64,000 nucleotides of DNA from Octopus vulgaris. Its lineage: Eukaryota. This document shows positions 27,347 to 62,855 of the stretch, in pieces. Position 1 is the first letter of the stretch; each line of letters starts with the position of its first letter. Position numbers and translations under genes: made by a program. The stretch spans positions 18,104,001 through 18,168,000 of the forward strand of contig OX597818.1 in NCBI GenBank assembly GCA_951406725.2, written 5' to 3'. Under the pieces are notes generated by a model. The model was not told the DNA's origin and searched no databases. It saw only the letters and a list, made by a program, of their open reading frames with translations.

Positions 27347-28141
27347 TTAACCTTTTAGCATTCAAACTGGCCATATCCAGCCAAAATAGTCTTCCTGTTT
27401 TATGTCCAAACTGGTCAGATCCAGCCTCTCACACCTACCCTACAATGTTAGTCTAAAAAATATACAGTCATGTAATCAAAATCTTATGGTTACAAGATAA
27501 TGCAGGATAAATTCAAACCAATGTGAATAAATAAGCATTGCATTTGATAAAATAATCTGAACGCTACAGAGTTAACCCTCTAGTAATCAGAGTATTCTGT
27601 TAAATGTAATGCTTATTCATTCATACTATATTTTGATTGAAGAGTAAAGAGTCCCTTCGATCATGAATGACCATGGGATTGCACCTACAAAGTTACCTTC
27701 TGAGGAACAAGTCCAGACAAGGTTGTTTATGGAAGACTAGCAGTTGCCCATGCATACCAGCCTCCTCACTCTATGCTACCAGTGTTATCCAAGGGAAAGG
27801 TAAAGGCTGATACAGCTTGGCACCAATGATGTTGCAACTCATTTCTACAGCTGAGTGAACTGGAGCAAAATGAAATAAAGCGTCTTTGCTCAAGAACACA
27901 ACACACATCCCAGTCCAGTCCAGGAATCAAACTCACTACCTCACGATTGTGAGCCTGACATTCTAACCACTGATCCATGCATTAATCATGCATTATCTGA
28001 AAGTTTCAAGATTTCTATGATGTGATTGTATATTTTTCAAATGATATTGTAGGATAAGTGTAAGAGGCCAGATCTGGCCAATTTGAACATAAAACAGAAT
28101 ATTTGGGCCAGATATGGCCAGTTTAAATATCAAAGGGTTAA
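27347..28141. mobile_element. Two inverted copies of piggyBac-like MITE family 3 sharing a central TTAA; the second carries a SINE at about 27640-27982
   Basis: TTAA at 27347, 27572 and 28138. aaactggccatatc at the left is mirrored by gatatggccagttt at the right. Same family at 49319-49548, about 40760-40990 and about 2383-2846. Confidence 0.75.
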
Positions 28142-29559
28142 GCCTATTTCAACATTCTGCCAATTCACCACCTTTCAAATTAAATAAATTAAGGGGAATA
28201 ACTCGAATGGATCAGTGGCACAAATTTAAAATTGATAGGTTAAGGAATAAAGTTGTATGTGAAGAACATTCTCAATTAACTGAAATTTTCCTGTGTTGGA
28301 GAAAGAAAGAAAAAATCAAATTTAACTAATGGTTGGTGACTCTCAAAGAAAAAGTGAAATATCTTCAAGTAATTTCAAGTGAAAAAAAGCCACTTGTCTT
28401 TCCCATCCACACCTTAATTCTAAGCAAATGCCCATAAGGCAAAATTCATTATCTTTGGTTTCACACTATAAAGGAAAGGATAGCTCAATAAGGGAGTCTC
28501 TACTTAGTCGTTCAACCAAATTTTCCTCCAAAACACACAATGGCAGCAGTGGCATCAACATCATCATCACAACAACAACTATTTTTCCATGCCTGGCATG
28601 GGCCAGGTGGAGTTCATTATAGCAGATTTTCTACAGTTTTATGCCCTCCCTGTCACCAACCCTCAACCGTGGGTCAGACATGTTCTCATAGGAGGCTGGA
28701 AATGAACAGCACTGCTTATATGATACCCATTTACAATTATTATATGAAGTCAAGGCAGGTAGGCAAAAACACATACATACAATTGGCTTCTTTTTGTTTA
28801 TGTATACTAAATCTACGGACAAGGTTTTAGTCAGCCTTGGATGAAAGTAGAAGATATTCACTCAAGCTATCTTGCAGTGGGACTGAACCTCAATCTTTAA
28901 AGTTGGGAAGGTAACTTCTTGACCTCACACCCATGGCTGTGCTAAAACTAACTTTAAAAAATAGGAAGGATAAACTGAATTGAATGATGTATGGGAGACA
29001 GTAGATGTACTATCTCTATAAAGGACATGATGGTTATAATTGGAATGTCTTTGATCATAAGTTCTGTTAAATGAAAGACAGCCTGGGGCTAAACAGCGAT
29101 AACAACTTTAATAACAGCTGTCATAACGGCAACATTTGGGAAACATATATTGCCATACAATAGCTTCAAACACAATAAAACAAGTGAAACTTGAATCCTA
29201 TACAGTAAAGGAAATTATTTTCTACACAAGAAATATGATTGATAAAGAAAGAAAAGAACATTTGTAAAACAAACTCAGCTTTTCTTTTGTAAATTATCTG
29301 TTAAAATCTTGATTTATGATCGTGACCATTGATAATAAACTGAGTTGATATTATAATGACTCCATAAAATTGTACCAAAAAAATTAGAGATTTACAGAAA
29401 ATTACGATTTCAACAATTGTTAATCGAGTAACAAAAAGAAAAAGAGAAAAAAATTTTCCACCGTTTAAATGATTAAACCTTTTGTTATAGGGATTTTTCT
29501 TCTATTTTTCTTTTCTTTTTTTTTTTTGTTGTTGTTTTGTTTTTGTTTTCTCTCATCAG

Positions 29560-29708
29560 ATTTAATAATCAGAAAGCTAAGTTCAGCCAAGAAATCAACT
29601 CGACTAACAAAGAGTTAGAAAAAACATTTTTGTCACCTCAGAACCAAAATAAGAAAGAGAGATCAGCTTTTTCTATCTATTGATTCTGTGGCACAATATT
29701 TCTGACAG
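29560..29708 (+). other. Candidate plus-strand exon (149 nt)
   Basis: About 60-nt pyrimidine tract ending ctctcatcAG|; donor CAG|GTATGG. One frame reads FNNQKAKFSQEINSTNKELEKTFLSPQNQNKKERSAFSIY*. Confidence 0.45.
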
Positions 29709-30302
29709 GTATGGTCTGTGTATAGAGAATAAAAATTACTGAAAATCAATAAAGCATTAAATGTCTATGGATTTAGAGACATAGAACAGTGAAAGGAAAA
29801 AAATAAAACCTAAGAGAGAATGAGAATACGAAAGTATGAGAGAAAGTTAGAACAAGTGTAAGAGAAACACTGTGTGTGTGTGAGGAGAAAGAGAGCAAAA
29901 GAGAAGTGGATAGAGAATGGAAGAGAAAAACACAAATGAAGACAGAGAAAAAAACAGGAAGAATGACTGAAAAGGATGAAATAAAAGGAAAACAAACAGA
30001 TAAGGAAAGAAAGTAAGGAACTTGTAGAGTTATTGGAGCATCGGGCAAAATACCTGTAGTATTTATTTGAATTCTTTGCATTATGAATTCTAAATACAGT
30101 TAAGGACAACATTATGTTTTGATTGTTTCAGGATCAATATACAAAGTAACCAGTCTAGGGGAGTAGGTTGGCTGAATTGTTAGAGCATCAGATAAAACAC
30201 TCTGTGATATCTGTTTTGCTCTTTGCATTCCAATTTCAAATTCTGTCTTCTATGGCTAACCTTATAATGGTGAGAAAAGGGTCTTTCAAAACCTGAATAA
30301 CA

Positions 30303-30870
30303 CAATAATAATGAATTTATTGTATACAGTGCTCAAGTGCACTACAACTCATCAGCTGTTCAGTGACTTCGAGGGCCACCTCCCAGTGATGTCGGGCGTC
30401 AACGAAGAGCCCTCGACTACAACAAGATGACCAAAGTTTTTTTTTTTCCAAGGTCTGGGGTCTCCCGTCCCTAAGCCCTAGACCATCACCTAATCACCCT
30501 TACTCGTCTTGTTGCTTAACAACAACAACAACTCATCAGAAAAAGTAACCAAAAGTGCAAGACAGTACATAGAATAATGCACAGGAAGTGAACAGTGAAT
30601 GAGTTGTTTAAAAAAGCGATGGTGGGGGGCATCAGGTGTACTGCTGGCCAATTTCAGGAAGCATGGAAGTTTTGGAGGATGAAGTATCCCAACAGCTAAG
30701 AACTGATGGGGGCAGTTCATTCAATGCTTCAGCAATCTGGTGCGTGAAAAAAATGTTTCCATAAGTCATGGGTGCTGTGTTGTTTTCGATTTTGTAAGCA
30801 TGTCCATGAGTGTTAAACAAAAATGGTACCTAAGGTTGTTGGAAAGGTGGATAATCTTGTAGGTGCCTAA
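30303..30870 (-). mobile_element. CR1/L2-group LINE 3' end, interrupted by a younger insertion at 30356-30527
   Basis: NTHGHAYKI...FFTHQIAEALNELPPSV..TSS matches the CR1 ORF2 C-terminal pattern (TRGH..K..FF..RV...WN.LP). Tail ends caataaattc(att)n. Confidence 0.8.
30356..30527 (+). mobile_element. Short 5'-truncated retroposon 3' end with (CAA)n tail
   Basis: Flanked by direct repeat acaactcatcag (30344-30355, 30528-30539). GC-rich and ends in (AAC)n. Confidence 0.7.
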
Positions 30871-31989
30871 CAGTGATGGGCATCCAATTTTATTCAAATA
30901 TTATATCATGAATCTTGAAGAGGAAGAGATACAAAGTCAATTTTGCCTTTCATTCTTTTGGGTTGATAAACAAATTAAAGTTCCAGCTTAGGAGAGTGAA
31001 TTAACAGAACTTAGAACATCAGACACCTATCAGTATTTATTCTGGCTTCTTGTAGTCCAAGTTCAAATCCTAGAGTATCCTACTTGGGCAGGAAACTTAA
31101 TCTGTTTGAATGGTTAATATCACTATGTTGTGTTTCAATGCCTTTACCTGAGCCTACCATTACTGCCAGTATTCAGGTAAGGTCTTTAATTTAAGGATAG
31201 TTCTCTCTCTCTCATACCCTTCTTCACTAATTTTGAAGGCCCTGTGCAGAGTATTATGCACTGTGTTCCCCCACTGATCATCAAACGAAAAAAAAAAAAA
31301 TTGAAGCGACATTTTGATCAAATAAAAATGAGCAGATCATACTAAAAATAAAAGTAGAATAGATCAAACACAGACAGACAGATAGCTAAGGTTAAGGAAG
31401 GAGAGAAACGAGGGAAACAGATAGTAAAAAAACTGAAATAGGGAGGGAGATAAAGTTGAAGATATAGAATGATGTAAAAATCTGAAACAAGTTCTTTTTA
31501 TCACAGATTAAATCACTATGGTAATCATGTCTTTAAAGACAAGAAGGCTAAGGCTAGAACAGCTGTTGACACAGAGCTGACCAAGGGTTAAAAAAAAAAT
31601 TATACTTAAAACAGAGTTAAATAAATGCTAAAAATAATGTAATTATCCATCAATATTCCAGCAGTTCTAGAAATGTGAAATAGCTATATTTTCACTTAAA
31701 GATGGTGGTGGTGATAGTTGTGGTGGTGGTGGTGATGTTGGTGCTGGCAGCAGCAGCAGTGTGGAGTGTGGAATAACAAAACGATTTATTGGAAATACAG
31801 AGAACATTTATTAATAAAAACAAAAAAGAAAATCAACCACAAATATCGTATTGTGGACCTTGAAATAAAGCAAGTGATGCAATAGATTTGAGGCATTATA
31901 CGTCATTTTATGGTTTCGTGTGTCATACAGAGATATGGATGAGCACAGTTGTATATTAATAATGAACTAGTTTATCTTAAAACATTCAC

Positions 31990-33450
31990 AACAACAGGTC
32001 ACTGTGACCGTATGAAGTACCAGGTCACAGTGACCATTCAGAGTACCGGGTCACGGTGACAATTCTAAGTAGCAGGTCACTGTGATCACTGGAAGTACCA
32101 GAGCCTTGTTACTATCTGAGTTTCTGACAATATTTCTCATCGCTGGTATTTTTGAGTTGTCGCCCATGCCTTTGATTCCGCAATGTTTTTGAACATTGTT
32201 TACCCCACTTCAATATAGGGCAGTATTGATTAATCGAAGTTATCATGCTTCCCACATTATACATCTAAGCATTTGCTTTTCTAACAATGGCTTAAGAATG
32301 CTTATAACAATAGGCACTATCTACATTGTTAACAACAGGTCACTGGGTACATTCCTAACAAAGAGTCCACCATTAATGTTTTTTTTACAAAAGTCAGTGT
32401 GATGGCTTCTAATAACAAGTTTGTCACATGAATATTTTTAACAGGTCACAGTGAATGCATCTAACAATAGATCGGCATGATTGTTGTTAATAGGTGGCTG
32501 TTGTTAACACTTCCAAAATAGGCCACTATGGGGGCTTCTATCAATAGGTCAGTCACCAAGGTTTTTTACAATAAGTCAGCCAACACTTCCAATAGGCCAC
32601 TGTGAAAGCTTCTAACAATAGGTCAGTCCCCATGAAGATGTTTAATAATAGGTCACTGTGAACATTTCCAACAATAGGCCACTGCCAAGGCTTCTAACAA
32701 TAGGTCAGTCACCAAGGTCTTTAACAATAAGTCAGCCAACACTTCCAATAGGCCACTGTGAAAGCTTCTAACAATAGGTCAGTTCCCATGAAGATGCTTA
32801 ATAATAGGTCACTGAACACTTCCAACAATAGGCCACTGCCAAGGCTTCTAACAATAGGTCAGTCACCAAGGTCTTTAACAATAAGTCAGTCAACACTTCA
32901 AATAGGCCACTGTGAAAGCTTCTAACAATAGGTCAGTCCCCATGAAGATGTTTAATAATAGGTCACTGTGAACACTTCCAACAATAGGCCACTGCCAAGG
33001 CTTCTAACAATAGGTCAGTCACCATGAAGGTCTTTAACAATAGGCCATTGTTGACATTTCTAACAATAAGTCACCACAAACATTTCTAAAAATAGGTCAC
33101 ACAGAATGTTTTTAATAACAAGTCACTTTAAACAATAGGTCACAGTGAACACCTCAACAACAGGTCACCATGAACGTTTTTTTAACAATAGGTCACTTCA
33201 AACAATGGATCACTGAATATGTTTAAAAATAGGACATCATAAATATTTCTAGTAATAGCTAATAGAAACATTTAAAAAAAAAAGCACTATGCCTATTTCT
33301 ATTGGTGAACTATTGTTGTAAGCAGAAATACTCCAAGCAATAGGTCACACTGAATGCTTTCCGTAATAATTTACCATTAACCTTTCCAACAATAGATATC
33401 TACAAACATTGTTAAAAGTGTCACTATGGACATTGATAACAAAAGGGTCA
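31990..33450. repeat. ~26-bp minisatellite (core aataggtca) with a 156-bp six-monomer higher-order repeat at about 32515-33050
   Basis: aataggtcagtcacc recurs at 32543, 32699, 32853 and 33009 (156/154/156 bp). Monomer lengths are 26, 27, 21, 26, 30 and 26. Confidence 0.95.
31997..32087. promoter_or_regulatory. Four phased ERE-type palindromes (GGTCAnnnTGACC); function untested
   Basis: GGTCActgTGACC at 31997, GGTCAcagTGACC at 32023, GGTCAcggTGACA at 32049 and GGTCActgTGATC at 32075, exactly 26 bp apart. Confidence 0.45.
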
Positions 33451-33629
33451 TTATGATAGTTATAACTAGGTTGCAGTGAGCATTTTGAAAAACAGAGCAC
33501 TACATATTTGCTAATAATATTTCAGTGTCTGTAAATGTAATAATATTAACCATGAAATTGTTGTGAAGAAGCTAATGATAATTTACTTTGAAGTTAGCTA
33601 GCTCAGCAGGAACTTGAGAATAATAATAA

Positions 33630-34048
33630 ATAGAAATCAGCAAAATGTGGAACCTGAAGACTAAAACAATACCTGTTGTCATAGGTGCCCTGGGAATGAT
33701 AGCAAAAGGGGCTGATAGCTACCTAACTCAGATACCAGGAAAACCAAAAATGGCAGAAATTCAAAAGATAGTGCTCATGGGAACTGCTCATATCCTACGC
33801 AAAATACTTTCTATGTAATCTCAAGGTTTAAACAAACATAATTTTCGGTTTAAAAAAAAAATTTTTTTTTTTAGACATTCATTAGTACAACACCAAAAAA
33901 AACCCCCAAATATATGGCACAGTAGGCATCACAACAACATGAACTTCCAACCTGTTGTCTCTTGAGGTCTCTGGGTGAGACTTGGAGCCAACTTGTACAA
34001 ATATAAAGCAAAAGTCAAACATAGAATAATAATAATAATAATAATAAT
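33630..34048 (+). mobile_element. R4/Dong-like retrotransposon 3' end with intact C-terminal frame, 3' UTR and (TAA)n tail
   Basis: 33630-33818 reads IEISKMWNLKTKTIPVVIGALGMIAKGADSYLTQIPGKPKMAEIQKIVLMGTAHILRKILSM*. (TAA)n lies on both sides (33619-33629 and 34025-34048). Confidence 0.9.
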
Positions 34049-34099
34049 TTAATCTAAAATCATTGGCAATAGTTTGCCAGTAACATGCTATAAGAAATG

Positions 34100-34468
34100 A
34101 TGATGATGATGATTTCAAATTTTGGAACGAGGTCAGCAATATTGGAGTAAGAGGTAAGTCGATTACATTGACCCCAGTACTCAAACTGGTACTTGTTTTT
34201 ATTGACCCTCAAAGGGATGAAAGACAAAGTCATCCCTGACAGAAGTTGAACTTAGAACATGAAGACAGAAGAAATGCCACTAAGTATTTCATCCAGTATA
34301 CTAATGATTCTGCCACTGCACCACCTTAATAATAATAATCATCCTTTCTACTAAAGGCACAAGGATGAAAGGCAAAGGCAATCTCAGCAGAATTTGAACT
34401 TAAAAACAGATGAAATACTGCAAATCATTTTGCCCAGTGTGTTAATGATTCAGCCAGCTTCTCACCTC

Positions 34469-34531
<63 letters not shown>

Positions 34532-34745
34532 CCTTTCTACTGGGGGCACAAGGACTCAAATTTGTGGAGAGGGAGCAAGTCAATTACATCGACCCCAGTG
34601 TTTTACTGGTGCTTAATTTATCAACCCTGAACAGATGAAAGGCAAAGTCGACCTTGGCAGAATTAGAACTCAGAACATGCAGACGAACGAAATGCCACTA
34701 AGCAGTCTACCTAGCATGCTAACGATTATGCCAGCTTGCTGCCTT
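34100..34745 (-). mobile_element. Second tandem chain of family A SINEs separated by (TAA)n/(TGA)n
   Basis: Copies at about 34112-34327, 34342-34468 and 34531-34745; long (TAA)n at 34469-34531. Confidence 0.85.
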
Positions 34746-35169
34746 GATGATGATGATAAAAATCATGTTGTCTGCAAACAAACACCATCAACCACTTGTC
34801 TCTAGAATTCCCTTTCCTATATTGCCTTTGATAGGTCACAATGTTTCTAGCAATAGTTAACAGGAACATTAAAAAAAAGCATTACCATGCACATTTTTGA
34901 CAGTGAACTATTGTTGTAAGCTTAAATACTCAAAGCAATAGGTCACACTAAATGTTTTTCACAAGTCATAAAAGTTAGCAATGCATGAACATTGAACAAG
35001 GGAATGCAGAATGGTTGCATTGCCCTTTGCACATCAACAGACAGGCCTGGCTGACAGATCTACCATGCTTGTAGATTTTATCCCAAACTGGTAATGCCGC
35101 AGTACCAAACCTGATAACATGTAGTTACAAAGTGAACTCCTTAATCACAAAAATATACCTCTGTCCTAT

Positions 35170-35350
35170 TATAGTGAAACTATCACCAGCAAATTACTAG
35201 TGAACTATAACAGTGAACAAAATATTAGCAAATTACAAGTGAACTACCATTAGTAAGTTAACAGTGAACTGTTATTAAAAACTTACTAGTGAAGTGTTAT
35301 TAGCAAATTCATGATAGACTGTTATTAGAAATTTACTGGTAAACTAGTTT
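35170..35350. repeat. Degenerate ~25-bp minisatellite (ttactagtgaactgttattagcaaa)
   Basis: About 7 decayed copies of agtgaact...ttagcaaa. Confidence 0.75.
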
Positions 35351-37137
35351 CAGTGACTTACTACTACTAATTCATTAGTATCGTACTAATAATTAGCCTT
35401 CATGAACTTGCTAATGAATATGATAAGTCATTATAACAGCTATTTATTTTTTAATTATATCACATTACTTACTTCTAATAATAGACCTTTCTTTGTCATA
35501 TGTTAATAATAGTCTAAACATAGACATTTTTGATAATAAGTCACAGTAAAATTGTTAATAGAGCACTAAGCTTGCTGTTACTTCAAAATGTAAAGAAACA
35601 GCTAAGTACAACGAGACCTTCACCCCTTGCTCTCTTGATTCTGCTAAGTACCACCCTTGATAATGATAGCTTCGAATTTCAGCAAATCCAAGGGAGACAG
35701 AGTTAGTCAATTACACTGGTCCCCACAGTGCTCAAATGATACTTATTTCATCAATTCTGAAAAGATGAAAGGCAAAATCAAACTCAATGGAATTTGAACA
35801 CAGAATGTAAAGAGCTGAAAGAAATGCAGCCAAGCATCTAGTCTGATGTATTAACAATTCTACCAGCTTGCCACTTTACCTTTAGTAATAATTTTTATTA
35901 GTAATAATAAAAGTCGCTGATGTTAGTACAATGTCACACATTTTGAAGGAAGGATGTAGACTCCAACATTTTGACTGTTACTTATTTACTCAGCTCTTTT
36001 GCACCCCAAGTTCAGTGCAGCAAGGACCACATTATACAATGGATTCTTTTTTAAGTCAGTAGGGTGTGATTTTAGGGAGATTTGGCAACTGCTTGTGGCA
36101 GGTAGAATAAACATGCAGAGGCCTCCTGCTCTCCAAGTACAGCACATTACCATTTTTAGGTAATTCTTTTATTTTACATTCCATGTTCAGATCTTGTACA
36201 GTTTGTGACTTTCTCTTTTATTTTTTAGAGATAAAGGAAAGTAACTGACCAGTAAATAAGATACACCTGAACTCTTTTGAAATAATTTGTAGCCTGCCTT
36301 GTGCTAATGTTAAAAACTAAGAATGGTCAACAAAGAAGTCTCTATTTGGTTGCTAAGCTGGTTAGAAATAGCCAAATCTTTCTCACATCACATTCGGCTG
36401 TCTTAAATAATAAACTGTATTATGTAGTGCAGGATTCATTGTATTTGGAGAAAAACATAGGACAAAATTTGAACTCGTAATTTCTAGGCAAAAAGTGAGT
36501 CCAATAATGCTATATCCATTCAACCATTTTATGCATGCAATTATGTTTAAAATGATGACTTGTTCCTATTCATTGAACAGAAATCTTGAAACACACACAC
36601 ACCTCAATGTAGACATGACCATCCAATCTTCACCAATAGCACAGAGTGATCAACATATATAAAGGAAGTAGCTATGCTACACTACAAAGAGCATATTAAC
36701 TCCTGAACAACACACTATTAATAACTTACACAAACTTTACACAGGCTATACTTGAAAGTGTAATATGAATATTTCATAGTAACCACATATCAATAACCTG
36801 GTCAGAAATAAAAGGCAAGTCTTTTTTTTCTTTTTTTTTTCTGCGATATAATAATGTAGTAATGGAAGAATATAAACCGTTGCCACTTGCAAGCTAAAAC
36901 AGTATTCCTTAAACTGACAAATACCAAGAACCCTCAAAAATATTAGTGAACAATTTTTGCCTTCTCCTTCTCTCTTTATTATTGAGAAGACAGAATAGGG
37001 TTTTGCATTCATTCATTTAATTTTTCTTTCTTCGTCATGATGTTGGACAAGAATAAAGTTTAAAAATAATTTTATTAACCATGGCAATTTGTCATTCCCA
37101 ACCTTTCTCAATCCACTCAGCCAGTGATATCTTGTGT

Positions 37138-37430
37138 AGGCACATGGCCTAGTGGTTAGAGCAGCGGACTCGCGGTCAAGGGATCGCGGGTTTGAATCTC
37201 AGACTGGGCGATGTGTGTGCTTATGAGCGAAACACCTAAGCTCCACGCGGCTCCAGCAGAAGGTAATGGCAAACTTCTGCTGACTCTTTCACCACAACTT
37301 TCTCTCACTCTTTCCTCCTGCATCTTGCAGCTTACCTGCGACGGACTGGCGTCCCGTCCAGGTGGGGAACCTATACGTCAAGGAAACCGGCCCTTATGAG
37401 CCAGGCATGGCTCGAGAAGGAACAAACAGT
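37138..37430 (+). mobile_element. tRNA-derived SINE with the same head as 23562-23948 but a V-domain-like 3' half
   Basis: ggcctagtggttagagcagcggactcgcggtc head; cctgcgacggactggcgtcccgtccagg in the 3' half. Confidence 0.85.
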
Positions 37431-39226
37431 GCTATCTTAAAGTATGGACACAGTGGATAGATGCTCCAGGGGCCCTATAAGTCTAGAAAGATTGCTACTA
37501 ATCTGTTTCATGTGGCTGTGTATGTTGGAATCTCAGTGCATTGCTTTGCCCACCTTATTTGGGGTGGGCATGCTTTAACTCTTCTGATACCAACCTACTT
37601 ACGTCACTCCTAGTTCTATGATACAAAATTCCTGTTTTAAAATTATTTAAATTAAAACTGTCCATCAAAATTTTGTATTAATGTTCCAAACATGAGCTTA
37701 ATAATATCAAGGTTATTTTACTAAATTATTCTTAATCTTAAAAATTAACTGAAATAAAGGCAGTGTGTTTGAACAGAAATATGGTAATAAAAGGGTTATT
37801 AATAATTTTAAGCTGACTATAAAACTGTGCAAAGTTAATAGGGAACTTGTCTGTGAGCAAATAATTCAGCTATCAAAAAGGTAAAGCATTTAGTTCAAAG
37901 ACAACCTACAGTGGTCAGAGAACATCCAAAACGTCTCAAATTGTCAAGATTGTTGCTACAGCTGATATTCAGCTCAAATAACTTTAGAGTGATATCTGTA
38001 ACGAAAATGACAAGTAGATAAGTGAATTTCAGAAGGTCTGCGAAAATGTTTAATATTTTATACTGTATGCTGGGGAAGGCGTCTCCAGATACAGTAAGGA
38101 TGATAAGAGTAGAAGTGCATACACCAGATGTGGTACTATTTGCTAATTCAGAACAGAAACAGTTAAATGACAACATTAGAAACAGAGAAAGAGGGGGTAA
38201 TTGTCACAGCATGTTGAGCTGATGATTGCTAATTAGCAAGAGGCCTTTTATTCTTTTATTTGGATGTTGTCAAAGATGTTTGTATATGTAGCAGCATGTG
38301 TTTGTAACAGCTGTGCTGTATATGCATAATATTCTCAAATAGAACATGTATGTTCTATTTGATGTGAATAACACCCTGAAATGAACACGTTTATGTTTGC
38401 TTCGACTGTATAGTCCCAAATATGTGACTGATATTTAAGCATGAGACACACACACACATCTGTATAAGCTGTGTAAGCTCAGATATGTGGATAATTCTCA
38501 AGAATAGGATATTTTGCATGTGTAGAACATTCTGTATGTTTAGTGACAGTGCAACTCCATATACCTGAATAATTCTCTAGAAAGGTCATTGAGTGTGTTT
38601 GGCAATGGTAAAATCCCAAAGTTGTTTGTTGTTGTTGTTGTTTAAAGACAGGTCAGATAAGATTATAAACTTGTCATGAAAAGCATTCTACCTATGGTCA
38701 TCTTGTCATGTTAGGAATGTTTAAGAAAACATAGTTTATCTAATGTGCCATGTTTTTTTTTTATATGAAAGCAGGATATGATTTGATGGAAAATTGTTTG
38801 CTATTCATAGCAAATCACATGGCCACATAGAAATTCCTTGAGGCGTCATACTTGTATATTTGAAAGTAACACTATCTCACGTATGTGGGAAATACTCTAA
38901 TACAGCTAAACTGCGTGCGTATATCCACTGACACTAAGATATCTTTTATCTTAAATCTTTTACTTGTTTCAGTCATTAGACTGCAGTCATGCTGGGGCAG
39001 GCCAAGAAGAACTTTTAGTCGAATGAATTACACACTTGGAGTGGTTAGCATTAAGAAGAGCATCCAGCCATAGAAACCATGCCAAATCATATTGGGAGTC
39101 TGGTCCAGCCCCTCAGCTTACCAGTCTTGGTCAAACCGCCTAACCCATGCCAGCTTGGACAATGGACATTAAGTGATGATAAATCAAACCTTTTGATGCC
39201 AGTACTATTCTTTTTTTTGAGCTAAC

Positions 39227-39619
39227 TCTCTTTACTCTTTTACTTGTTTCAGTCATTTGACTGCGGCCATGCTGGAGCACCGCCTTTAATCAAGCAACTC
39301 GACCCCGGGACTTATTCTTTGTAAGCCCAGTACTTATTCTATTGGTCTCTTTTGCCGAACCGCTAAGTAACGGGGACATAAACACACCAGCATCAGTTGT
39401 CAAGCAATGCTAGGGGGACAAACACATACACACACACGCATATATATATATACATATATACGACAGGCTTCTTTCAGTTTCCGTCTACCAAATCCACTCA
39501 CAAGGCTTTGGTCGGCCCAAGGCTATAGTAGAAGACACTTGCTCAAGGTGCCACGCAGTGGGACTGAACCCGGAACCATATGGTTGGTAAACAAGCTACT
39601 TACCTCACAGCCACTCCTG
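39227..39619 (-). mobile_element. SINE family B, young copy
   Basis: Same consensus, CpGs retained. Confidence 0.9.
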
Positions 39620-41182
39620 CTAGTTATTCTAACAATTTCTTTCACTAAGTTATAGGAATGTAAACACACCAACACCAGTTGTCAAATAGTGGTGGCACAC
39701 AAAGACACACACACATATATACATACAACGGGATTCTTTCAATTTCTATCTACCAGATTCACTCACAAGGATTTGATCAGCCCAAAGTTATAGTAGTTTG
39801 CACTTGTCCAAGGTACCATGCAGTGGGACTGAACCCAAAACAATGAGGTTGGAAAGCAAGCTTCTTACCACACAGCCATGCCCGAGCATATCTTAAACAG
39901 TGTCACTCTAAACTGTGTAACATTTGTACCATATAAAGGGGTCTGCAGGTAATCAGAGTTTAAGTATTTTCTCATCCTTAAGAGGGAGTCTAGCCTTGAG
40001 ATGCAGTTTTGGGCAGGCAATTAATGGCATGGATACCATGAAAAACTTGCCATACTCTGTCAGGCCAAGTATTTGTAAAGTTTGTTTAAGTATTAGTAAG
40101 CATTTTATCTGAGGGATAGTAAGCAGTATGCATCACTGATTAAGTAGGCCAGTAGTCAAAAGTGTTCCGGCTGTGACCATCCTGTCTAATTCCAAACTAA
40201 ACCGCACCCAAGACATTATCCAATGCACACTTTTTCTAGAGAGTAGCAAAATACATTACTACTAATTCCAGTAGGTCAAGTCACAATATGTATATTTATA
40301 TATAGGTTTCCAATTCTGGCACAAGGCCAGAAATTTCAAGGGAGGGCATAAGTTGATTACATCAGTCCTAGTGCTCAGCTGCTACTGATTTTATTGACCC
40401 CCAAAAGAATGAAAGGCAAAGTTGACCTTGGCAGAATTTGAACTCAGAAAATTAACGAAATGCTAAAGAGCATTTTATCTGGCATGCTAATAATTCTACA
40501 AGCTTACCACCTCTATGTATACTATATATTGATTTCAAATTTTGGCACAAGGCCAGCAATTTCAGGGGAGGAGTAAGTCAATTACATCAACTCCAATATT
40601 CAACTGGTACTTATTTTATCGATCCTGAAAGGATGAATGGTGAAGTCAACCTCAACAGAGTTTGAACTCAGAACACAGAGACAGACAAAACGGTGCTAAG
40701 CATTTTGCCCGGCATGCTAATCATTCTGAAAGCTCACAACCTTTATGTACATTTATATATTAACCCCTTTAGTGTTTAAACTGGTCATACCCGGGTCAGA
40801 TATTTCTGTTGTTTTATGTTCAAACTGGCAAAATTCAGCCTCTTACAACTACCCTACAATGCCATCCTAAAACTAAATAAACACATCATTGAAATCTGAA
40901 AACTACAAGATAACACTCGATCAATTCAAAATAATCAGAATAAATAAGCAATACATTTGGCAGAGTAATCTGAATGGTAAAGGAATAATGAACAGTATTA
41001 ATTTGGAGGCTGAAAACTGAAATAAAACCTTGTGTGTATGTGTGTGTGCGTGCATGTGTGTGGATTTATATCTCCTTGTCTTGACATCCATGAGAGTAAT
41101 AAACATGTGTCACTGTCATACAATCTGTGTCCCTCATTTCCAGTCTTCCATGAAAACATGTCCAGGCATAGGAGAAATATTA

Positions 41183-41735
41183 TTGGGTTGTCTGGAAAGT
41201 TCGTGCCGATTCATAGTAGCTTACCTTTCAACTTATTTTAGAACATAAAATAAGATTTGACTACACCGCCATTTAGAGCACAGTTTAAGCTATCTTTTCA
41301 TGGAAGAAGGTTTATGTTCCTATAACCTGTGTTAATTCTGTAACCCTTTAAAATGAAAGACAAGAAAGTTCATTTTCGGCACTTGACGCTTTGGAAACCA
41401 GACAAAAATTGCCTAACCTCAGCTGGGATGTGTTACCCCACCCTCCATATTCACCAGATACTGCTCCTTCTGATTTCCACTTATTCAGGTCTCTGAAGAA
41501 TAGTCTTATTGTAAAAATTTCAATTCCTTGGATGACGTAAAAAGATACCTTGATGAATTGTTTGCCATGAAACCACCCCAATTCTGGGAAGAGGGTATTT
41601 TCAAGTTAAAGGAAAGATGGAGACGCATTGTGCAACAAAATGGTTCATATTTGGTTGATTAAAAATGTAATGGCAAATATTTATTGACCTTTTTCTTTCC
41701 TTTAAAAATTGGCATGAACTTTCCGGACAACCCAA
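41183..41735 (+). mobile_element. Internally deleted mariner transposon
   Basis: TIRs ttgggttgtctggaaagttcgtgccgatt / aattggcatgaactttccggacaacccaa with TA on both sides. MKDKKVHFRH is fused to TRQKLPNLSWDVLPHPPYSPDTAPSDFHLFRSLKNSL. Confidence 0.95.
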
Positions 41736-42728
41736 TACTTTGCTTGGCATTAGGTGAGGGTTGGTGATAGGAAAATCATTCTAACCAAGAGACAATCCAC
41801 ACAAGAAACATGCCTGACTGGGTGCTTGCTTTTGAGCAGAAACATCCAAATGATCGAGTGTATTTCTCGTCTGTGTAACTTCCAGAAACCCATCTTCAAA
41901 TCAAACTATTAATACAAATGCACACACACACATGAATGCATGCATGTGTATGCGTGTGTGCATGTTCATTTAGTGTTGCTGGAAAACACTTTTGCTGTTA
42001 CAACCCACAGACAGCATATGAAAGTCTGGCCAACTGAAGTATTGTTAACCTAGCTGGGACTCATTCAGCTGCAGTGCAGTCAGAACCATATATATTCTCT
42101 CAGTCAGATGGTTGATATATTATTGATTCAGAAATGCTAAATACATGAAAAACAACAGCTAAGGTATTGTTAACAAATTTACTGCAGGGAGCAGTAAAAC
42201 AGCTAACTAGAAATAATTATGCAATGAAGGAAAAGAAACAAAACAAAACCAAACCAAAGGCTAATATCAATTTTGTTTTTCACACTGAATACAGGAAACA
42301 ACTCTACATCTGATATATTTGTGTTTTTTAACAATATACATCTATAAGAGATGTTATCTTGGGGCAAATACTGCAGTTTATCAGGTGTTCGACAAAGCAT
42401 TTGTTTTAGGTATAATACACCGATTGCTATTTTGAACTAACACTGCTGTGGTTCATAACAAATTTTTATTAAGCATGCAGGCTAATTGCAATATCTATGA
42501 TTTTTCAATCACTGCTTTACTATATCAGTAACAGCAAATTTTGTCTTAGCTTGTAGCTATCAGTAAATACTTGCCACTGATGTCTACCAAAGATGCAGAA
42601 ATGCACATTTAGCAATATCACTACTACTGTTAAACAATTTTCATTCTACTGCCGATATAGTTCCGTATTTTTTAACAATATATGTTGGTAAGAGATACTA
42701 TTTCAAGAAGATGGCATACTTCTTGAGA

Positions 42729-42961
42729 AAGGCGGAGAGCTGGCAGAAATGTTAACACGCTGGGTGAAATGTTTAGCGGTATTTCGTCTGCTGTTACATT
42801 CTGAGTTCAAACTCTGCCGAGGTCGACTTTGCCTTTCATCCTTTCGGGGTCGATAAATTAAGTACCAGTTACGCATTGGGGTCGATGTAATCAACTTAAT
42901 CCCTTTGTCTGTCCTTGTTTGTCCCCTCTATGTTTAGCCCCTTGTGGGCAATAAAGAAATA
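42729..42961 (+). mobile_element. SINE family A, tail type ii
   Basis: Near-identical to 52718-52953 and to 63535-63757 (minus). Confidence 0.9.
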
Positions 42962-44329: not shown

Positions 44330-45262
44330 CACAATTTCTTCCATTTATTCATGAATAATTACCAATATAAGTAAAGAGGTTCCATGTGAAATTGGAATCG
44401 GTTTGTAATTTTTATAAGACTGATTACTTATAATGATTAAATTCAAGTAAACAACTATCTGGAAAAAAAAAAATCTAGCTGGAAGAGTAATGATAATGAA
44501 GGCACAGCAGATTAGAATTCAATGTGTAGCAATGAACAGTGACTTTGGGGATTGATTGCAGAGGAAAAGGAACAGAACTCGAAGAATTTACCAATTCTTG
44601 ATGTGAAACATGTATAAACATCAATCAAGCAAGTCAGATGAAGATCAACAGGAAGAGCAATCCAATATTATGTAGAAGGAGGGGGGTATGGGAAAAGAAA
44701 AAAATGTCTTGTCACCATAACTGCTATTTAAAACTGATGTTATGTCCACTGTCTGACACAATAAATCCATCATATGGATACCCAGATATAGCAACAATAT
44801 TATTGCCATGAAATCATTAATAATAAATCATCAGTTGATGTTATCTTTCCCTCCCCACTTCTTCCATCCTGGATCAATAACACATCACAGTTATGTTTTT
44901 CATAGCAATCCGTCATCCATTCAATACCGAATATAAAATGGATTACAGTATTCTGAAATATGTAATTTAGGAATGTTCGACTAATACACGCCGACAAAGA
45001 ATTATACATATCTCATCTGAAGACAATCAAAGCATGAATAAAGCTTTTACAATGAAGCAGCTAAGAATCTTTGAATGATCAAGAATTTTTCCCCAAGATA
45101 AAGATAGTAATCTTATTGAGATATTCACTAAAATAAATTCCAGTAATGAATATAAAAGAGTATGACAATAACTTTCAGTAATAGCAACAAATTGAATTTT
45201 AATAAAATAGATGAAATGCCATAGAATCTGCAAATGGTTTCGGAGAGAATATATCACAATTT
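44330..45262 (-). other. Candidate terminal exon (mostly 3' UTR)
   Basis: Possible branch point and acceptor ttaacctaataaattttaaaaaacAG| at 45264-45263, about 0.9 kb of repeat-free sequence, and minus-strand AATAAA at 44349-44344. Confidence 0.3.
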
Positions 45263-57705: not shown

Positions 57706-57831
57706 AATGCGTGAGAAGTTTTCTTGTTAAGTGTGGGTGGGACACACAGCACTTCTAGAACTCAGTTTCACTGACATGGTATGTGTGTATGTGTGCCAAT
57801 TTCATTACATTTCATTTCAGAATAGACTCAC

Positions 57832-57903
57832 CTTTCTGCTGTTGCTTGCTGCTGATGACAACACAACAAACTACGCAGTATCCGGTCAGCAGGACAGTCG
57901 AAA
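57832..57903 (-). other. Candidate 72-nt exon (3' UTR exon or alternative coding exon)
   Basis: ctactactttcactttAG|tttcgactg...gcagaaAG|GTGAGT. Unique, CpG-containing island between repeats. Confidence 0.6.
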
Positions 57904-58998
57904 CTAAAGTGAAAGTAGTAGTGATGGTGATGGTGGTACAGGTGGTGGTGGTGATGATAGTAGTAGTAGTTTTGTCCCAGGTCAACTAACAATATAGAAA
58001 GCTAGAGGAGGACCTGTAATGCTAAAAAGTGCCCCCAACCCAACTAGCTTTTGGTCTTTTTTAAGTGTGGATAGATCCATCTAGGATCACATTAGCTAAT
58101 GTGTCTTACTTTTTTTTCTTCTCAATTAAGATGTTAGAGTTTGATTTCAAAGAAAACTTCAGTGCTATTTTTTGCAGGTTAACTAACCAAGCAGTAGTAG
58201 TAGTAGTAGTAGTAGTATAGTAGTTGTTGTTGTTTGATGTTAGGATAATAAATAAAAGCACTGTAAAAGGTCATCACTATGGCAAAATAACCGATGCAGG
58301 TAATTTCTTTATTTCATACAAGGGTACTAGACATTACTTACAAACCCATAGAGCACTGGGATTTGCACTTACATAGCATGGACTGCTGTGCACATTTTAT
58401 GAAAATGAGACTACCATGTACACATAAAAAACAAAAACTAGTTAAAATATCTTCTTAGTATATAATGGTGGCAAGTTTTACACCATCTGAAAAGTCATTA
58501 GTTGAACTATTAGTCCTCTTGCATTCTGGGAGTACTGGAGCGTTTGAGCGACATTAGACCCCAACAAACGTTCATAAATTAAATGCATCTATCTCGGCCA
58601 CGATCGTGGCCTGTTGACCTGTACCTGATGGCCCATCACGCTTTATGCGTTAACAACAATAACCATTTCTACAATAGGCAAAAGGACTGAAATTTTTTTT
58701 TTTTTGGTGGGGGTCGAGTTAATTACATTGACTTCAGTCAATGTACTGGTACTTATTTTATCGACCCCTGAAAAGATTAAAAGCAAACTAGATCCCAGCA
58801 GAATAATGTCAATAATAAGTTCGGGATGGAGTCAGTCAATTATATCGACCCCAGTGCTTAACTGGTACTTGTTTTATTGACCCAGAAAAGATGAATGGTA
58901 AAGTTGACCTTGGCAGAATTTAAACTCAGAACGTACACACGGACGAAATACTAGGAAGTATTTAGCCCAGCATGCTAACGACTCTGCCAGCTCACTGC

Positions 58999-61270
58999 TT
59001 TTTTTTTAGGGCCACTTTCGGTCATGGCTGACCATGGGTATCACGTCCGTCCATTTATTGTCTAGGTTGGGCCACTTGGCTTGAGCAGCGCCTCCTGTGG
59101 CTATGGAAACCAATGTGAAAATGACAGTCTTGGTCGCATAGATCGCATTTGTGTGTGGATTCTGGTCTGTAGGCTGTCGATCCCTTACGTTAGGCTTGCT
59201 TTTCTGCAACTGCTTCTCTTCACCAATCCGTAGCAGTTTGAGAAGTGTGCTTTTCCACCTGATGCGGTCCACTACCAGGTCCCCCCCAGGAGTTGATGTC
59301 GATGTTGAGCGTCTTCATGTCCCTCTGTCCTGCTGCGAGTTCTCCGTAAAGAATGTCTTTTGGGATTCAGTTGTCCTCCATACAGTGAATGTGGCCTATC
59401 CAGCATAGTTGATGTTGCCTCAGCAAGTTTATATGGAAAGAAGGCCAGCACGAGTCAGGACGTTGGTGTTGGTAACATTGTCCTGCCAGGAGATACCGAG
59501 TATGCATCGTAGGTTTTTGAGATGGAAGCTGTTCAGCTTTTTTTGCCTGACAGGCATATGTGGTCCATGTCTCGCTGCTATACAAGAGGGTGCTGAGGAT
59601 TTAGGTACTGTACACAACCATCTTTGTTTTCACTGTCAACTTTGGGTTTGTCCACACTCTTGATGTGAGGCACGTGAGTGTAGTGGCTGCCTTCTCAATT
59701 CTGTTATCAATCTCGGCATCGAGAGAGAAGTTGTCAGTGATGGTGGACCCAAGGTAGGTGAATTGATGAACAACTTCAAGTTCGTAGTCATCGATGGTGA
59801 TAACTGGTTGTGCTGGTGTGCCTTATACCAGGACATTTATCTTCTTCGGGCTGATGATCAGCCCGAAGTCCTTGCAGGCCTGGGAGAGGCAGTCCATTAG
59901 CAGCTGCAGCTCCCGTTGGGAGTGGGTCGTAATTGCAGTGTCATCAGCAAATAAAATGTCTCTGATGACAGCTTCACAGACCTTTGTCCTCGTTTTTAGG
60001 CAGCCAAGATTGAAGAGCCTGCCATCTGATCTGGTCTGCATATAGATTCCTTCTTGTGCTGTGCTGAAAGTGCGTTTCAGAAGGAGAGAGAAGATCCCAA
60101 AGAGCATTGAGGCGAGCACACAGCCTTGCTCGACTCTGCTGTGTATGTCGAAGGGCTCAGAGAGGTTGTCATTGAACTGCACAGTTCCCTTCATATTTGA
60201 GTGAAAGGACTCAATTAAGCTATGCTGTCTTGGTGGGCAGCCAATCTTACAGAGAGCCTTGAAGAGGCTGTCTCTGCTGCTGAGGTTGAAGGCCTTGGTG
60301 AGATCGATGAATACAACATATAGGAGCCTCTGCTGCTCCCTGCACTTTTCCTGTAGTTGACGAAGGAAGATCATGACTACAGTGGACTTTTCAGCTCGGA
60401 AGCCGCATTGTGATTCTGGGTAGACATGCTCAGCCAACTTCTGCAGACAGGTAAGAAGGACCTGGGCGTAGACTTTGCCAACGATGTTGAGGAGGGAGAT
60501 GCCCCAATAGTTGTCACAGTTGCTTCTTTTGCCCTTGTTTTTGTACAGGGTAATAAATCTTTGCATCTCTCATGTCTTGCAGTACAGCTCCCTCTCTCCA
60601 GCACTGGCAGAGGACTTCATGCAAAGGGTGCAGTAGGGTAATCTTGCAGTGTTTGATGAGATCTGGTGGAATACTGTTGCTGCCTGGAGCTTTGCCAGCT
60701 GCTAGACAGTCGATGGCCTTGCTGACTCCACCCGTCTGTCCATTTGTCAGCCTTGATCAGTGATGACTTCCCCAGTGAGGGATTTGAGGGGAGCTGTCTT
60801 ATTCTGCATTGGTCCCAGCACCCTCTTGATGCCATCGTACACCCCTCTGATGTTGCCAGTTGCGGTGGCTATATGGATTGACTCACTGAGCTCTGTCCAG
60901 TATTCAATGTCACAGCGCCTGGTGGTGTGCTGGACCTTGCTCTTGGCAGTCCTCAGAATCTGCAGGTTCCTCTCAGTGGGTGACCGCTTATATTCCACCA
61001 GTGAACCTGGTTTAGCTTCAATTACAGGGGTCATCTGAAGCGACATGGCCTCAAACCAGTCATGAGACTTTGAAGTCTTCTTTCCAAAGATAGACAAGGC
61101 TGTGCATTGGATTTTCTCTCATAGAGTTTCCCATCTCTCTGTGGCAGTATCTCTGGACTGTGTTGCATCATACTCCTCCTCAAAGGCCTCTGCAAACTGT
61201 TCTACAAGGTCGGGCTGAGACATCTTGTTGAAATGTATGTGTAGGGTTCCTGATTTCTTTGCAGGGATAC
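58999..61270 (-). mobile_element. 5'-truncated, frameshifted RTE (BovB-like) LINE with reverse transcriptase domain
   Basis: ORF fragments LYKNKG..CDNYWGISLL, PESQCGFR, FIDLTKAF, VEQGCVLA, ILFADD, YSSETWT, ILGISWQD, WIGH. The ORF ends ..PMVSHDRKWP* directly into a short poly(A) at 58999-59007. Confidence 0.95.
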
Positions 61271-61433
61271 ATGCTCTCATTTGAAGGTGAACATTGCTAT
61301 TGAGAGAAACGGTGACTATGTTGAGAAGTAGGCATGTGATCCAGAGGACCAGCATGATATTGATGTGTGATACATGATCCTGTGTTAGTAATTATACCTG
61401 TCCTAAACAATATGGCATTACTTTTTGACTCAC

Positions 61434-61706
61434 CTTCGTATTATCATTATTATATACTTCACTGGTTTGGGACAATAGGACGAATAAATGAAAACGTAGT
61501 GGATTTATATTCCAGTTAAATAAAAATAAAAAACTTGTAAGAAAAAATCCCAGCAAATACGAAGTATGATGGAGGTGGGAAAAAGTTAAAAGGTAAAACT
61601 AAAGAACAACAAGAATGAGAGAGAAGCGTTGGATCGAAGCATGTCAGATTTCGAAGTTGAAAAAGAAAATAAAGGCTCCGTTGTGTATCCGCGTGTGTGT
61701 GGTGTG
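61434..61706 (-). other. 3' UTR part of the stop-containing exon, ending at a consensus splice donor
   Basis: Minus strand GAAG|GTGAGT at 61434/61433. No AATAAA seen on the minus strand between the stop and the donor. Confidence 0.6.
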
Positions 61707-61864
61707 TCAAGCAGACATTGTCGATTGGTTTAGAAGTTTGCTTTGCAAATCATGCAGACGTGGAAATCTCGGATCCATGTCTTTCAGCACAGCTTCGGGG
61801 CTACTCAAACCCTTTTTGAGGTATAGGGAGACAGAAAGCTGTGGAAGCTCGACGGACTTGTAAT
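61707..61864 (-). CDS. Last coding segment of the same gene, ending at TGA 61709-61707
   Basis: Acceptor ggtctttcaattacAG|AT TAC AAG. Reads (D)YKSVELPQLSVSLYLKKGLSSPEAVLKDMDPRFPRLHDLQSKLLNQSTMSA*. The only long open frame is the one predicted by the upstream exon phase. Sequence is unique and CpG-retaining. Confidence 0.75.
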
Positions 61865-62855
61865 CTGTAATTGAAAGACCCCCTCCACCTCTCTCTCTCT
61901 CTCACTGCAACGCAACAAACTATCATCTAAGAATTATGTTAGGGGGCGTTCCTATAAAATAGTGTCGGGAAATTCTTTGGCAGAGCACATGTTTTAAGCA
62001 TTGCAGATTACGAATCTGTATATAAAAAAAAAGTGAGGAAGGTGTCTCCCCTTCCCCGTTTTCTTTTTGCTGTTGACTTTTTTAATCGAAAAAAAATTTG
62101 TTTAGATGTATATAACACATATTTTCGAAGACTCATAATCTCAGATATTTAAAACATAAATCGGGGGAAAAAAAGTTTTTCAAAAGAAAGTCAAAACTGA
62201 AAAATTACGGAAAGTGTGGGACGACAGGGGGTGGGAGTGAGAATGCTCTAATCCGCCCTCTCAAAAAAAAAAAAAAAAAAGAAAAGAAAAATCTTCTCTT
62301 GCAGAATTGTAAATCTACGATGTTTAATTTAAAGCGTATTCGAAGAAATCATGGCTTTTGGCGCACTAGATAATTTCTGACGTTATTCCATAGGAAAACT
62401 CTTTAAGGGTAAAAGTGTTAGTAGCATTATATATTCAGGCACGTTAGTTCAATGCATAAGGCTTTTGTGCGCGCGCGTATATACATACGTACAGAGAAAA
62501 TTGTTAGAACAGAGAATAAATAGTGTTCAAAACAACCGTGGTGGTTGTTGTGATGGTAGCGGTGACGTTAGGTATGGGAGAAAATAATTGTGAAAGTGAG
62601 TGGTGGTGTAGAGACGAGACGGTTTTCCCATTTAATGTTCGCTACAAAACCAACCCAACACAATTACCGCATGTTATATACTTCCTATAACCACCCGAAC
62701 CACTTTCTACAGCCACGTCGAACCACAGAAACCAATACAACCATCATCATCATCACCACCAACAACCACTACAACGATTAAAAACCGGAACACGCACCAC
62801 CACCACTACAACACGTACCACGACTAATAACTTAACTACGCAGTGGAATTAATAC

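What the first reader, a model, noticed from the sequence alone, without database searches (positions are those of the whole stretch)
31990..33450. Minisatellite built from nuclear-receptor elements: four phased estrogen-response palindromes followed by a long AGGTCA array
Seen: two perfect and two single-mismatch GGTCAnnnTGACC palindromes at an exact 26-bp pitch (31997-32087). The same unit continues for over 1 kb as aataggtca/aataggcca monomers, several retaining GGTCAcwgTGAAC (e.g. 32651, 32961, about 33138). Established: GGTCAnnnTGACC is the ER/ERR-type IR3 element; the octopus ER orthologue is a ligand-independent activator that binds EREs; AT-rich-preceded AGGTCA half-sites are bound by monomeric ROR/Rev-erb (HR3/E75)-type receptors. 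Inference: repeat expansion may have created a homotypic nuclear-receptor enhancer or decoy whose strength varies with copy number. It lies about 12 kb beyond the putative 3' end of the minus-strand gene.
Basis: partly seen in the sequence, partly recalled or inferred. Interest (0 to 1): 0.72.

Follow-up and report, generated by a model that had tools for sequence, protein, structure and literature searches.

The report
Octopus minisatellite holding estrogen-response palindromes
A one-off 26-base repeat in an octopus genome carries four near-perfect estrogen-receptor DNA sites whose core letters are unchanged in a related species while the letters between them differ; it likely lies in an intron and likely arose by plain duplication, and whether the hormone-independent octopus receptor uses it as a switch is untested.

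Summary
The four palindromes at 26-bp pitch are real (two perfect, two with one mismatch). They head a single-locus, old 26-bp minisatellite that runs, with gaps, insertions and an inverted part, from 32.0 to 35.6 kb. Its long part has the consensus half-site plus a weak second half, not ROR/Rev-erb sites (strict 0 of 22). The array likely lies in a 5' intron of a SAMD3-like gene, not beyond a 3' end. For constraint: a related species about 5% diverged differs at 7 places in the block, none in the 40 half-site bases (P 0.03, inflated by ascertainment), and the GGTCA core is the best-kept G/C core among 13 degenerate arrays. Against: close pairs of perfect elements are not enriched genome-wide (3 versus 7 control), neighbouring palindromes pair into hairpins that could homogenise them, and the block has four units in every contig that spans it, so copy-number tuning is unsupported. 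Verdict: probably a duplication by-product that offers good ER sites (0.5); a working ER/ERR enhancer remains a serious rival (0.35). The genome encodes an ER-type receptor, so this is a ready test site.

The parts
31996..32099 (+). Four-unit block, 26-bp period, each unit = IR3 palindrome plus 12-13 bp linker
   Evidence: mean column identity 0.85; changes concentrated in linker and spacer
31997..32009 (.). Perfect estrogen-response palindrome 1 (spacer CTG)
   Evidence: exact reverse complement of palindrome 2
32023..32035 (.). Perfect estrogen-response palindrome 2 (spacer CAG)
   Evidence: 14 of 15 letters of the consensus probe in PMC2529310
32049..32061 (.). Palindrome 3, one mismatch (spacer CGG; CAG in organism E)
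32075..32087 (.). Palindrome 4, one mismatch (spacer CTG)
32100..32298 (.). Stretch without recognisable units between block and long array
32299..33250 (+). Long degenerate array, about 36 units of 17-30 bp; best-kept part TAACAATAGGTCA, second half-site weakly kept
32502..33042 (+). Recent 156-bp higher-order repeat (six units, 3.5 copies, 93%); 335 bp of it are missing in organism E
33242..33360 (+). Segment duplicated at 34840-34958 (81%), holding one inverted AGTTCA unit and one forward unit
33620..34766 (.). Interspersed repeats and microsatellites that interrupt the array
   Evidence: many hits elsewhere in the window for 34106-34766; very high depth
34833..34958 (+). Second copy of the duplicated segment with further units
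35193..35359 (-). Inverted 25-bp array of the same family, half-site AGTTCA
   Evidence: (pair I13)
57800..62600 (-). Predicted 5-prime end of the host gene (CpG step near 61.5-62 kb; candidate donors at 57831 and 61433); inferred only

Best explanation
This is a single-locus, old 26-bp minisatellite, likely in a 5' intron of a SAMD3-like gene, whose unit carries a nuclear-receptor half-site and whose four palindromic copies likely arose by ordinary tandem duplication of one unit that had gained a perfect estrogen-response element; it would likely bind octopus ER in a test tube but likely does little in the animal. Steps: (1) shown: one family of units spans 32.0-35.6 kb, with a near-palindromic consensus (second half TGAAC) and a sub-block with TGACC; (2) inferred: one A-to-C change made the palindrome perfect and three duplications gave the 26-bp phasing, so pitch and number need no selection; (3) inferred: the palindromes stayed alike through chance, through our picking the locus for its intact motifs, and possibly through template switching between neighbouring copies, which are inverted repeats of each other; (4) shown: later events (156-bp expansion, inversion, repeat insertions) reshaped the monomer part without regard to spacing.
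For: Single locus in 2.8 Gb (these searches skip very common words). Perfect elements 1779 against 3598 for the reversed control; pairs within 30 bp 3 against 7, the same rate per single site (0.17% and 0.19%), so such pairs are not enriched. 26 loci hold three GGTCAnnnTGA in a row (my count from the 70 matches), so motif-bearing minisatellites are common here. The array is no better conserved than its flanks in organism E: 28 of 561 and 10 of 162 letters differ inside, 3 of 152 and 13 of 308 beside it. In the long array the 13-bp kept block takes 5 of 15 differences on 117 of 289 bases (6.1 expected). Palindromes 1 and 2 are exact reverse complements and pair in the fold, as do 3 and 4; template switching homogenises arms of 7 bp or more and flips spacers in yeast (PMC8604942, passages). 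A second array 135 kb away shows nearly the same half-versus-half contrast (0.214 against 0.225).
Against: 0 of 7 differences in the block fall in the 40 half-site bases of 104 (P 0.029; P 0.13 against the 5% background); pooled 0 of 33 on 60 of 607 bases (P 0.029). Neutral simulations reached the observed core contrast in 1 of 450, the G/C contrast in 1 of 450 and the best-half contrast in 0 of 450 runs. The target ranks first of 13 degenerate arrays in 1.35 Mb on both contrasts, and a motif-blind window lands on TAGGTC. Of 12 measured loci with three motifs in a row, this one has the most diverged linkers (0.61 and 0.67 against 0.76-1.0; 14 of 26 loci not measured). The mismatches of palindromes 3 and 4 have not been corrected since before the split from organism E, and hairpins do not explain the kept non-palindromic TAACAAT.
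Confidence: 0.5

Rival explanations
1. The four-unit block is a working homotypic enhancer (or silencer) for the ligand-independent ER, or for ERR, born from a minisatellite and now held by selection; ER dimers would sit on all four sites (26 bp is about 2.5 helical turns, so on alternating faces) and act on the host gene's promoter about 30 kb away. The long array would add weak half-sites, perhaps with SOX-type AACAAT sites (motif recalled).
For: Half-sites spared in organism E (0 of 7; pooled 0 of 33); best-kept G/C core of 13 arrays; most diverged linkers of 12 measured loci; C(A/T)G spacer in 6 of 8 elements, the spacer enriched at ER-bound sites in human cells (PMC2853111, passages); receptor with P-box CEGCKA on C14 and an ERR-like one on C16 (ERR label recalled); molluscan ERs bind the element and octopus ER is constitutive (PMC2529310, passages); likely 5-prime intron position; the two other loci with close perfect pairs hold 5 elements each, against 2-3 at the 6 control loci.
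Against: No genome-wide excess of close pairs (3 against 7); motif positions were chosen for matching the consensus in this genome, and 6 of the 7 differences look like changes in this genome's lineage, which weakens the P values; no overall conservation; four units in all 6 spanning contigs, so no copy-number tuning seen; local CpG count (7 in 300 bp) is matched by 13 of 264 gene-body windows and 3 of the CpGs in the block are absent in organism E; no chromatin or binding data.
Confidence: 0.35
2. The kept letters matter in RNA rather than DNA: as part of an intron or long untranslated region the units would give repeated protein or microRNA sites, or short hairpins.
For: Likely inside a transcribed gene; the block folds better than shuffles as minus-strand RNA (z -2.16, 3 of 200); a weak Rfam match to mir-2001 lies on palindromes 1-2 (22 bits).
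Against: The fold follows from the palindromes themselves; the Rfam score is far below the cut-off of 74 (E 0.97); units occur in both orientations; site counts for three recalled microRNA words are low (5, 3 and 1 on the + strand).
Confidence: 0.08
3. The array is the relic of sub-terminal repeats of a foldback-type or other DNA transposon, the kept core having been a transposase site.
For: Units in both orientations about 2 kb apart; a degenerate 33-bp array on C9 has a similar palindrome in its consensus.
Against: No second copy in the genome; no long terminal inverted repeat and no frame of 80 aa or more with protein-like content between the two orientations (judged by eye); the C9 unit shares little beyond the palindrome.
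Confidence: 0.07

Closest known systems
Consensus estrogen response element and EREs inside repeats (PMC2853111, passages read; probe in PMC2529310, passages read)
   Same: 13-bp IR3 with C(A/T)G spacer; several elements close together; carried by repetitive DNA.
   Different: There the carriers are mostly Alu/MIR elements and binding was measured; here four phased copies come from a single-locus minisatellite in a mollusc whose ER is ligand-independent, and nothing has been measured.
Tandem-repeat enhancers with homotypic motif clusters, e.g. the MORC3-repressed IFNB1 element with 45 PU.1 sites (PMC13373173, abstract and outline read)
   Same: Tandem repeat that multiplies one transcription-factor motif, some tens of kb from a promoter.
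   Different: Nuclear-receptor motif; only 8 near-full sites and 22 half-sites; degenerate and interrupted; no functional data.
ROR/Rev-erb response element (PMC7226830, passages read)
   Same: AGGTCA preceded by A/T-rich DNA; T directly before the half-site in 14 of 22.
   Different: The stated 5-prime extension is met by 0 of 22 half-sites, a relaxed recalled form by 1 of 22; no RevDR2.
Short inverted repeats homogenised by template switching (PMC8604942, passages read)
   Same: Adjacent 13-bp arms with a 13-bp loop; spacers CTG and CAG are each other's reverse complement.
   Different: Shown in yeast; here two mismatches have persisted, and no multi-base templated change was seen.

Membership tests
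Estrogen response element (IR3) | 13-bp GGTCAnnnTGACC | tested here: met
   2 perfect and 6 single-mismatch copies in 31997-33175
Estrogen response element (IR3) | Full 15-bp AGGTCAnnnTGACCT | tested here: not met
   The two perfect 13-mers each match 14 of 15; the last base is G or A (listing)
Estrogen response element (IR3) | C(A/T)G spacer typical of ER-bound sites (PMC2853111) | tested here: met
   6 of 8; may reflect common descent of the units
Estrogen response element (IR3) | A receptor with the ER P-box (CEGCKA) in the genome | tested here: met
   First finger at G000:C14:83.08 Mb (20 of 64 zf-C4 matches were fetched)
Estrogen response element (IR3) | Bound by the receptor in cells and needed for transcription | not testable with these tools
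   No chromatin, binding or reporter data
ROR/Rev-erb monomer element | 5-prime extension TAA(A/T)NT before AGGTCA (PMC7226830) | tested here: not met
   0 of 22; relaxed recalled form WAWNTRGGTCA 1 of 22; RevDR2 0
NR4A (NBRE) and ERR/SF-1 monomer elements | AAAGGTCA (PMC7226830) or TNAAGGTCA (recalled) | tested here: not met
   0 and 0 matches
Single-locus minisatellite | Head-to-tail 10-100 bp unit at one locus | tested here: met
Single-locus minisatellite | Variable copy number | tested here: inconclusive
   335 bp missing in organism E's monomer part; a 56-bp step back in X3 and X4 may be an allele or an assembly effect; the four-unit block is constant in 6 of 6 spanning contigs
Tandem-repeat enhancer with homotypic motif cluster | Many copies of one motif made by the repeat | tested here: met
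   RGGTCA 14 and 7 per kb at 32-34 kb against 0.71 per kb over 464 kb
Tandem-repeat enhancer with homotypic motif cluster | Motif positions under constraint | tested here: inconclusive
   For: (P about 0.03, rank 1 of 13). Against: ascertainment, (5 of 15 in the long-array block)
Tandem-repeat enhancer with homotypic motif cluster | Accessible chromatin and enhancer activity | not testable with these tools
   none available
Dispersed satellite or transposon family | Further copies in the genome | tested here: not met
   Only this locus; one isolated 20-mer on C19 without an array
mir-2001 microRNA gene (RF03374) | Score at or above the gathering cut-off of 74 bits | tested here: not met
   22 bits, E 0.97, 41 bases

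The most novel reading that the evidence does not exclude
A minisatellite gave birth to a four-site, selection-maintained ER/ERR enhancer in the first intron of a conserved SAMD3-like gene: a natural, endogenous target of the hormone-independent molluscan estrogen receptor, and one of a small class of repeat-born ERE clusters in octopus (two more on C8 and C9).
Probability: 0.27. Interest if true: 0.72.

Novelty: new member of a known kind. Interest (0 to 1): 0.42.

Why it matters
Molluscan ER is described as binding EREs and, in octopus, activating without hormone (PMC2529310, passages), but my paper searches listed no natural genomic target or ERE-bearing repeat in octopus (listings only, open-access library only). 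This block is the only pair of perfect elements at a 26-bp pitch and one of three close pairs in 2.8 Gb, so it is an obvious first site to ask what the orphan receptor binds in vivo. If it proves inert, it is a clean example of how octopus minisatellites produce convincing motif clusters by duplication alone.

Tried and rejected
Expression: no RNA holder listed (no listed holder is on record as RNA). Four runs guessed to be RNA were laid on 28001-48000 and one on 31300-33620; contigs of X10, X12, X17 and X19 bridge the block, and X10/X12 had next to no cover at 44.7-46.0 kb, but type and strand are unknown, so this is not used for or against. I first read the common start of three contigs at 29558 as a splice junction of a plus-strand last exon; rejected, because the tool cuts alignments at a skipped repeat ending at 29557 and the 40-aa frame there found no relative (weak evidence) and no Pfam hit. 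A minus-strand poly(A) site near 29550 is equally unproven. Coding array: no frame of 80 aa or more over it. A strong-scoring exon candidate at L031:7507-7585 had no Pfam hit and was dropped after viewing the sequence. Nuclear-receptor gene nearby (autoregulation): nearest zf-C4 matches on this contig are at 46-48 Mb. MicroRNA seeds: the octopus list could not be read (PMC9699675 data files cut), so that test is open; a genome search for mir-2001 rang nowhere, controls included, which shows nothing. Table S2 of PMC9699675 lists no ERR in octopus, but an ERR-like first finger is present here. Local CpG retention as a sign of an unmethylated element: not unusual, and not shared with organism E. 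The literature search on ERE spacing and synergy returned nothing relevant. PMC12965858 (passages) added nothing.

Full report
Observation. Eight of the 12 window matches with up to one mismatch lie in 31997-33175; 100 shuffles gave a mean of 1.45 and none reached 12. That excess comes from tandem duplication, so shuffles are the wrong null; better ones follow.

Anatomy. The block of four is followed by about 220 bp without units, then by a long degenerate array (32.3-33.25 kb) with units of 17-30 bp and a recent 156-bp higher-order repeat of 3.5 copies at 93%. A profile built from 26 units finds the family again at 33311-33494, 34833-34940, inverted at 35270-35359 with the half-site AGTTCA, and at 35538; 33242-33360 is duplicated at 34840-34958, with interspersed repeats in between. 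An alignment not anchored on the motif gives the consensus half-site followed by a weak TGAAC; the best-kept part is TAACAATAGGTCA and the second half-site is kept at only 0.44-0.84 per column. So the long array is a half-site array, and only the four-unit block is a run of full elements. The family is confined to this locus in 2.8 Gb (these searches skip very common words).

Setting. A protein 135 kb away is 100% identical to an Octopus vulgaris entry and has relatives named SAMD3-like across molluscs. It lies on the minus strand; its first residues need an upstream exon, and the best of 4 candidates is an 11-base micro-exon with canonical splice sites 86 kb from the array, consistent with an isoform that starts 18 residues later. 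CpG observed/expected is 0.23-0.31 from that gene through the array to 58 kb and 0.85 beyond 62 kb, with a sharp step near 61.5-62 kb; A exceeds T on the + strand by 0.04-0.06 inside and 0.006 beyond. Octopus methylation sits on gene bodies (PMC9476566, passages). I infer a long methylated minus-strand gene starting near 58-62 kb, with the array in a 5-prime intron about 30 kb from the start. This is inference; no spliced read links the exons.

Who could bind. The genome has a first zinc finger with P-box CEGCKA, the ER signature given in PMC2529310, and an ERR-like one (20 of 64 matches fetched; ERR label recalled). That paper (passages) states that the characterised molluscan ERs bind EREs and that octopus ER is constitutive, and prints a consensus probe that palindrome 2 matches at 14 of 15 letters. 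Six of 8 elements have the C(A/T)G spacer enriched at ER-bound sites in human cells (PMC2853111, passages). The ROR/Rev-erb reading fails: the extension given in PMC7226830 (passages) is met by 0 of 22 half-sites, a relaxed recalled form by 1; NBRE, ERR/SF-1 monomer, IR1 and RevDR2 patterns give 0. AACAAT, a SOX-type word from recall, occurs 20 times on the + strand.

Is the motif constrained? For. Run X19 (organism E, about 5% diverged, type guessed as RNA, depth about 6) differs at 7 places in the 104-bp block: six in linkers or the base before a half-site, one in a spacer, none in the 40 half-site bases (P 0.029, or 0.13 against the background rate). Pooled over the ends-trimmed contig, 0 of 33 listed differences fall on 60 core bases of 607 (P 0.029; 5 differences near contig ends were not listed). 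Neutral simulations under three histories reached the observed core, G/C and best-half contrasts in 1, 1 and 0 of 450 runs. Among 13 degenerate arrays in 1,347,043 bases the target ranks first on both contrasts, and a motif-blind window picks TAGGTC (0.29 against at most 0.23). Of 26 loci with three GGTCAnnnTGA in a row (my count), 12 were measured; this one has the most diverged linkers.

Against. Perfect elements number 1779 against 3598 for the reversed control, close pairs 3 against 7: no enrichment. The core positions were chosen for matching the consensus in this genome, and by the unit consensus 6 of the 7 differences arose in this genome's lineage, which is the lineage the choice conditions on. 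One control array reaches a best-half contrast of 0.214 against 0.225 when scored over a longer span, so the simulations understate real unevenness. In the long array the 13-bp block takes 5 of 15 differences where 6.1 are expected (part of this compares paralogous copies). The array is not better conserved than its flanks. Palindromes 1 and 2 are exact reverse complements and pair, as do 3 and 4; template switching homogenises such arms and flips spacers in yeast (PMC8604942, passages), which would spare palindromes and not linkers without selection, although two mismatches have persisted uncorrected. If X19 is RNA, some A>G or T>C differences could be edits (one in the block).

Copy number. 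All 6 contigs that span the block (X3, X4, X10, X12, X17, X19; 5 studies, 4 organism labels) show four units without a gap; X9 has no spanning contig and the pieces of X8 there were not listed. Only the monomer part differs (335 bp absent in organism E). The tuning idea is therefore unsupported for the full elements.

Other loci. The two other close pairs are also in repeats: a young 132-bp repeat on C8 with five perfect elements and an old 33-bp array on C9 with five near-perfect ones and the palindrome close to its consensus. The six control loci hold 2-3 palindromes each. This hints at a small class but the numbers are too small to carry weight. Earlier notes of this scan describe STAT- and IRF-like arrays in the same genome; they are unchecked and cut both ways.

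Verdict. The origin by tandem duplication is secure. Whether the block is used is open: I put 0.5 on a by-product with little effect, 0.35 on a working ER/ERR element, 0.08 on an RNA-level role and 0.07 on a transposon relic. It works like an ERE cluster on sequence, is not a RORE array, and cannot be filed as an enhancer without chromatin data. Motif-multiplying tandem repeats are a known kind (PMC13373173, abstract and outline). Searches listed no report of this element or of a natural octopus ER target; only listings were seen and subscription journals are not covered. The data files of PMC9699675, which hold the microRNA site lists and a gene annotation, could not be read and bear on the RNA rival and on the gene model.

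Noticed in passing
G000:C6:40.51-40.53 Mb (no locus fetched): A 2990-aa open frame with at least nine zf-C4 matches and more beside it: a giant array of nuclear-receptor DNA-binding domains; already noted as e1-8663334.
   Followed up: no
L053:1407-1942 (G000:C8:49.57 Mb): 132-bp repeat, 4 copies at 94%, with five perfect 13-bp estrogen-response palindromes flanked by A and T (full 15-bp form); one more perfect element 3 kb away.
   Followed up: partly
L054:1277-1879 (G000:C9:46.27 Mb): Old 33-bp array (12.5 + 3.9 copies, about 60% matches) with three perfect and two single-mismatch elements; a short stretch resembles units 33137-33175 of the window.
   Followed up: partly
L019:3272-4090 (G000:C5:17.997 Mb): Degenerate 19/22-bp array whose consensus holds CCAAGGCCA, an SF-1/FTZ-F1-like word (recalled); its G/C columns are poorly kept (0.45-0.69).
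   Followed up: partly
L019:8433-9401 (-): SAMD3-like gene, 307 aa, 88-94% identical in other cephalopods and about 50-60% in other molluscs, no Pfam hit; predicted 11-base ATG micro-exon 46 kb upstream and a gene body of roughly 160 kb or more.
   Followed up: partly
L188 (G000:C16:16.27 Mb): ERR-like first zinc finger (P-box CEACKA; label recalled), although Table S2 of PMC9699675 lists no ERR for octopus.
   Followed up: no
window 44803-45012 (-): 70-aa frame with a Walker-A-like word; no Pfam hit; probably chance or a decayed mobile element.
   Followed up: partly
window 59000-61400 (-): Broken LINE reverse transcriptase (RVT_1, E 2.6e-24) next to the predicted gene start.
   Followed up: no
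window 29500-29570: Strong plus-strand acceptor-like site at 29560 overlapping a minus-strand ATTAAA and an A-rich run; two contigs of one study appear to begin at 29550. Unresolved.
   Followed up: partly
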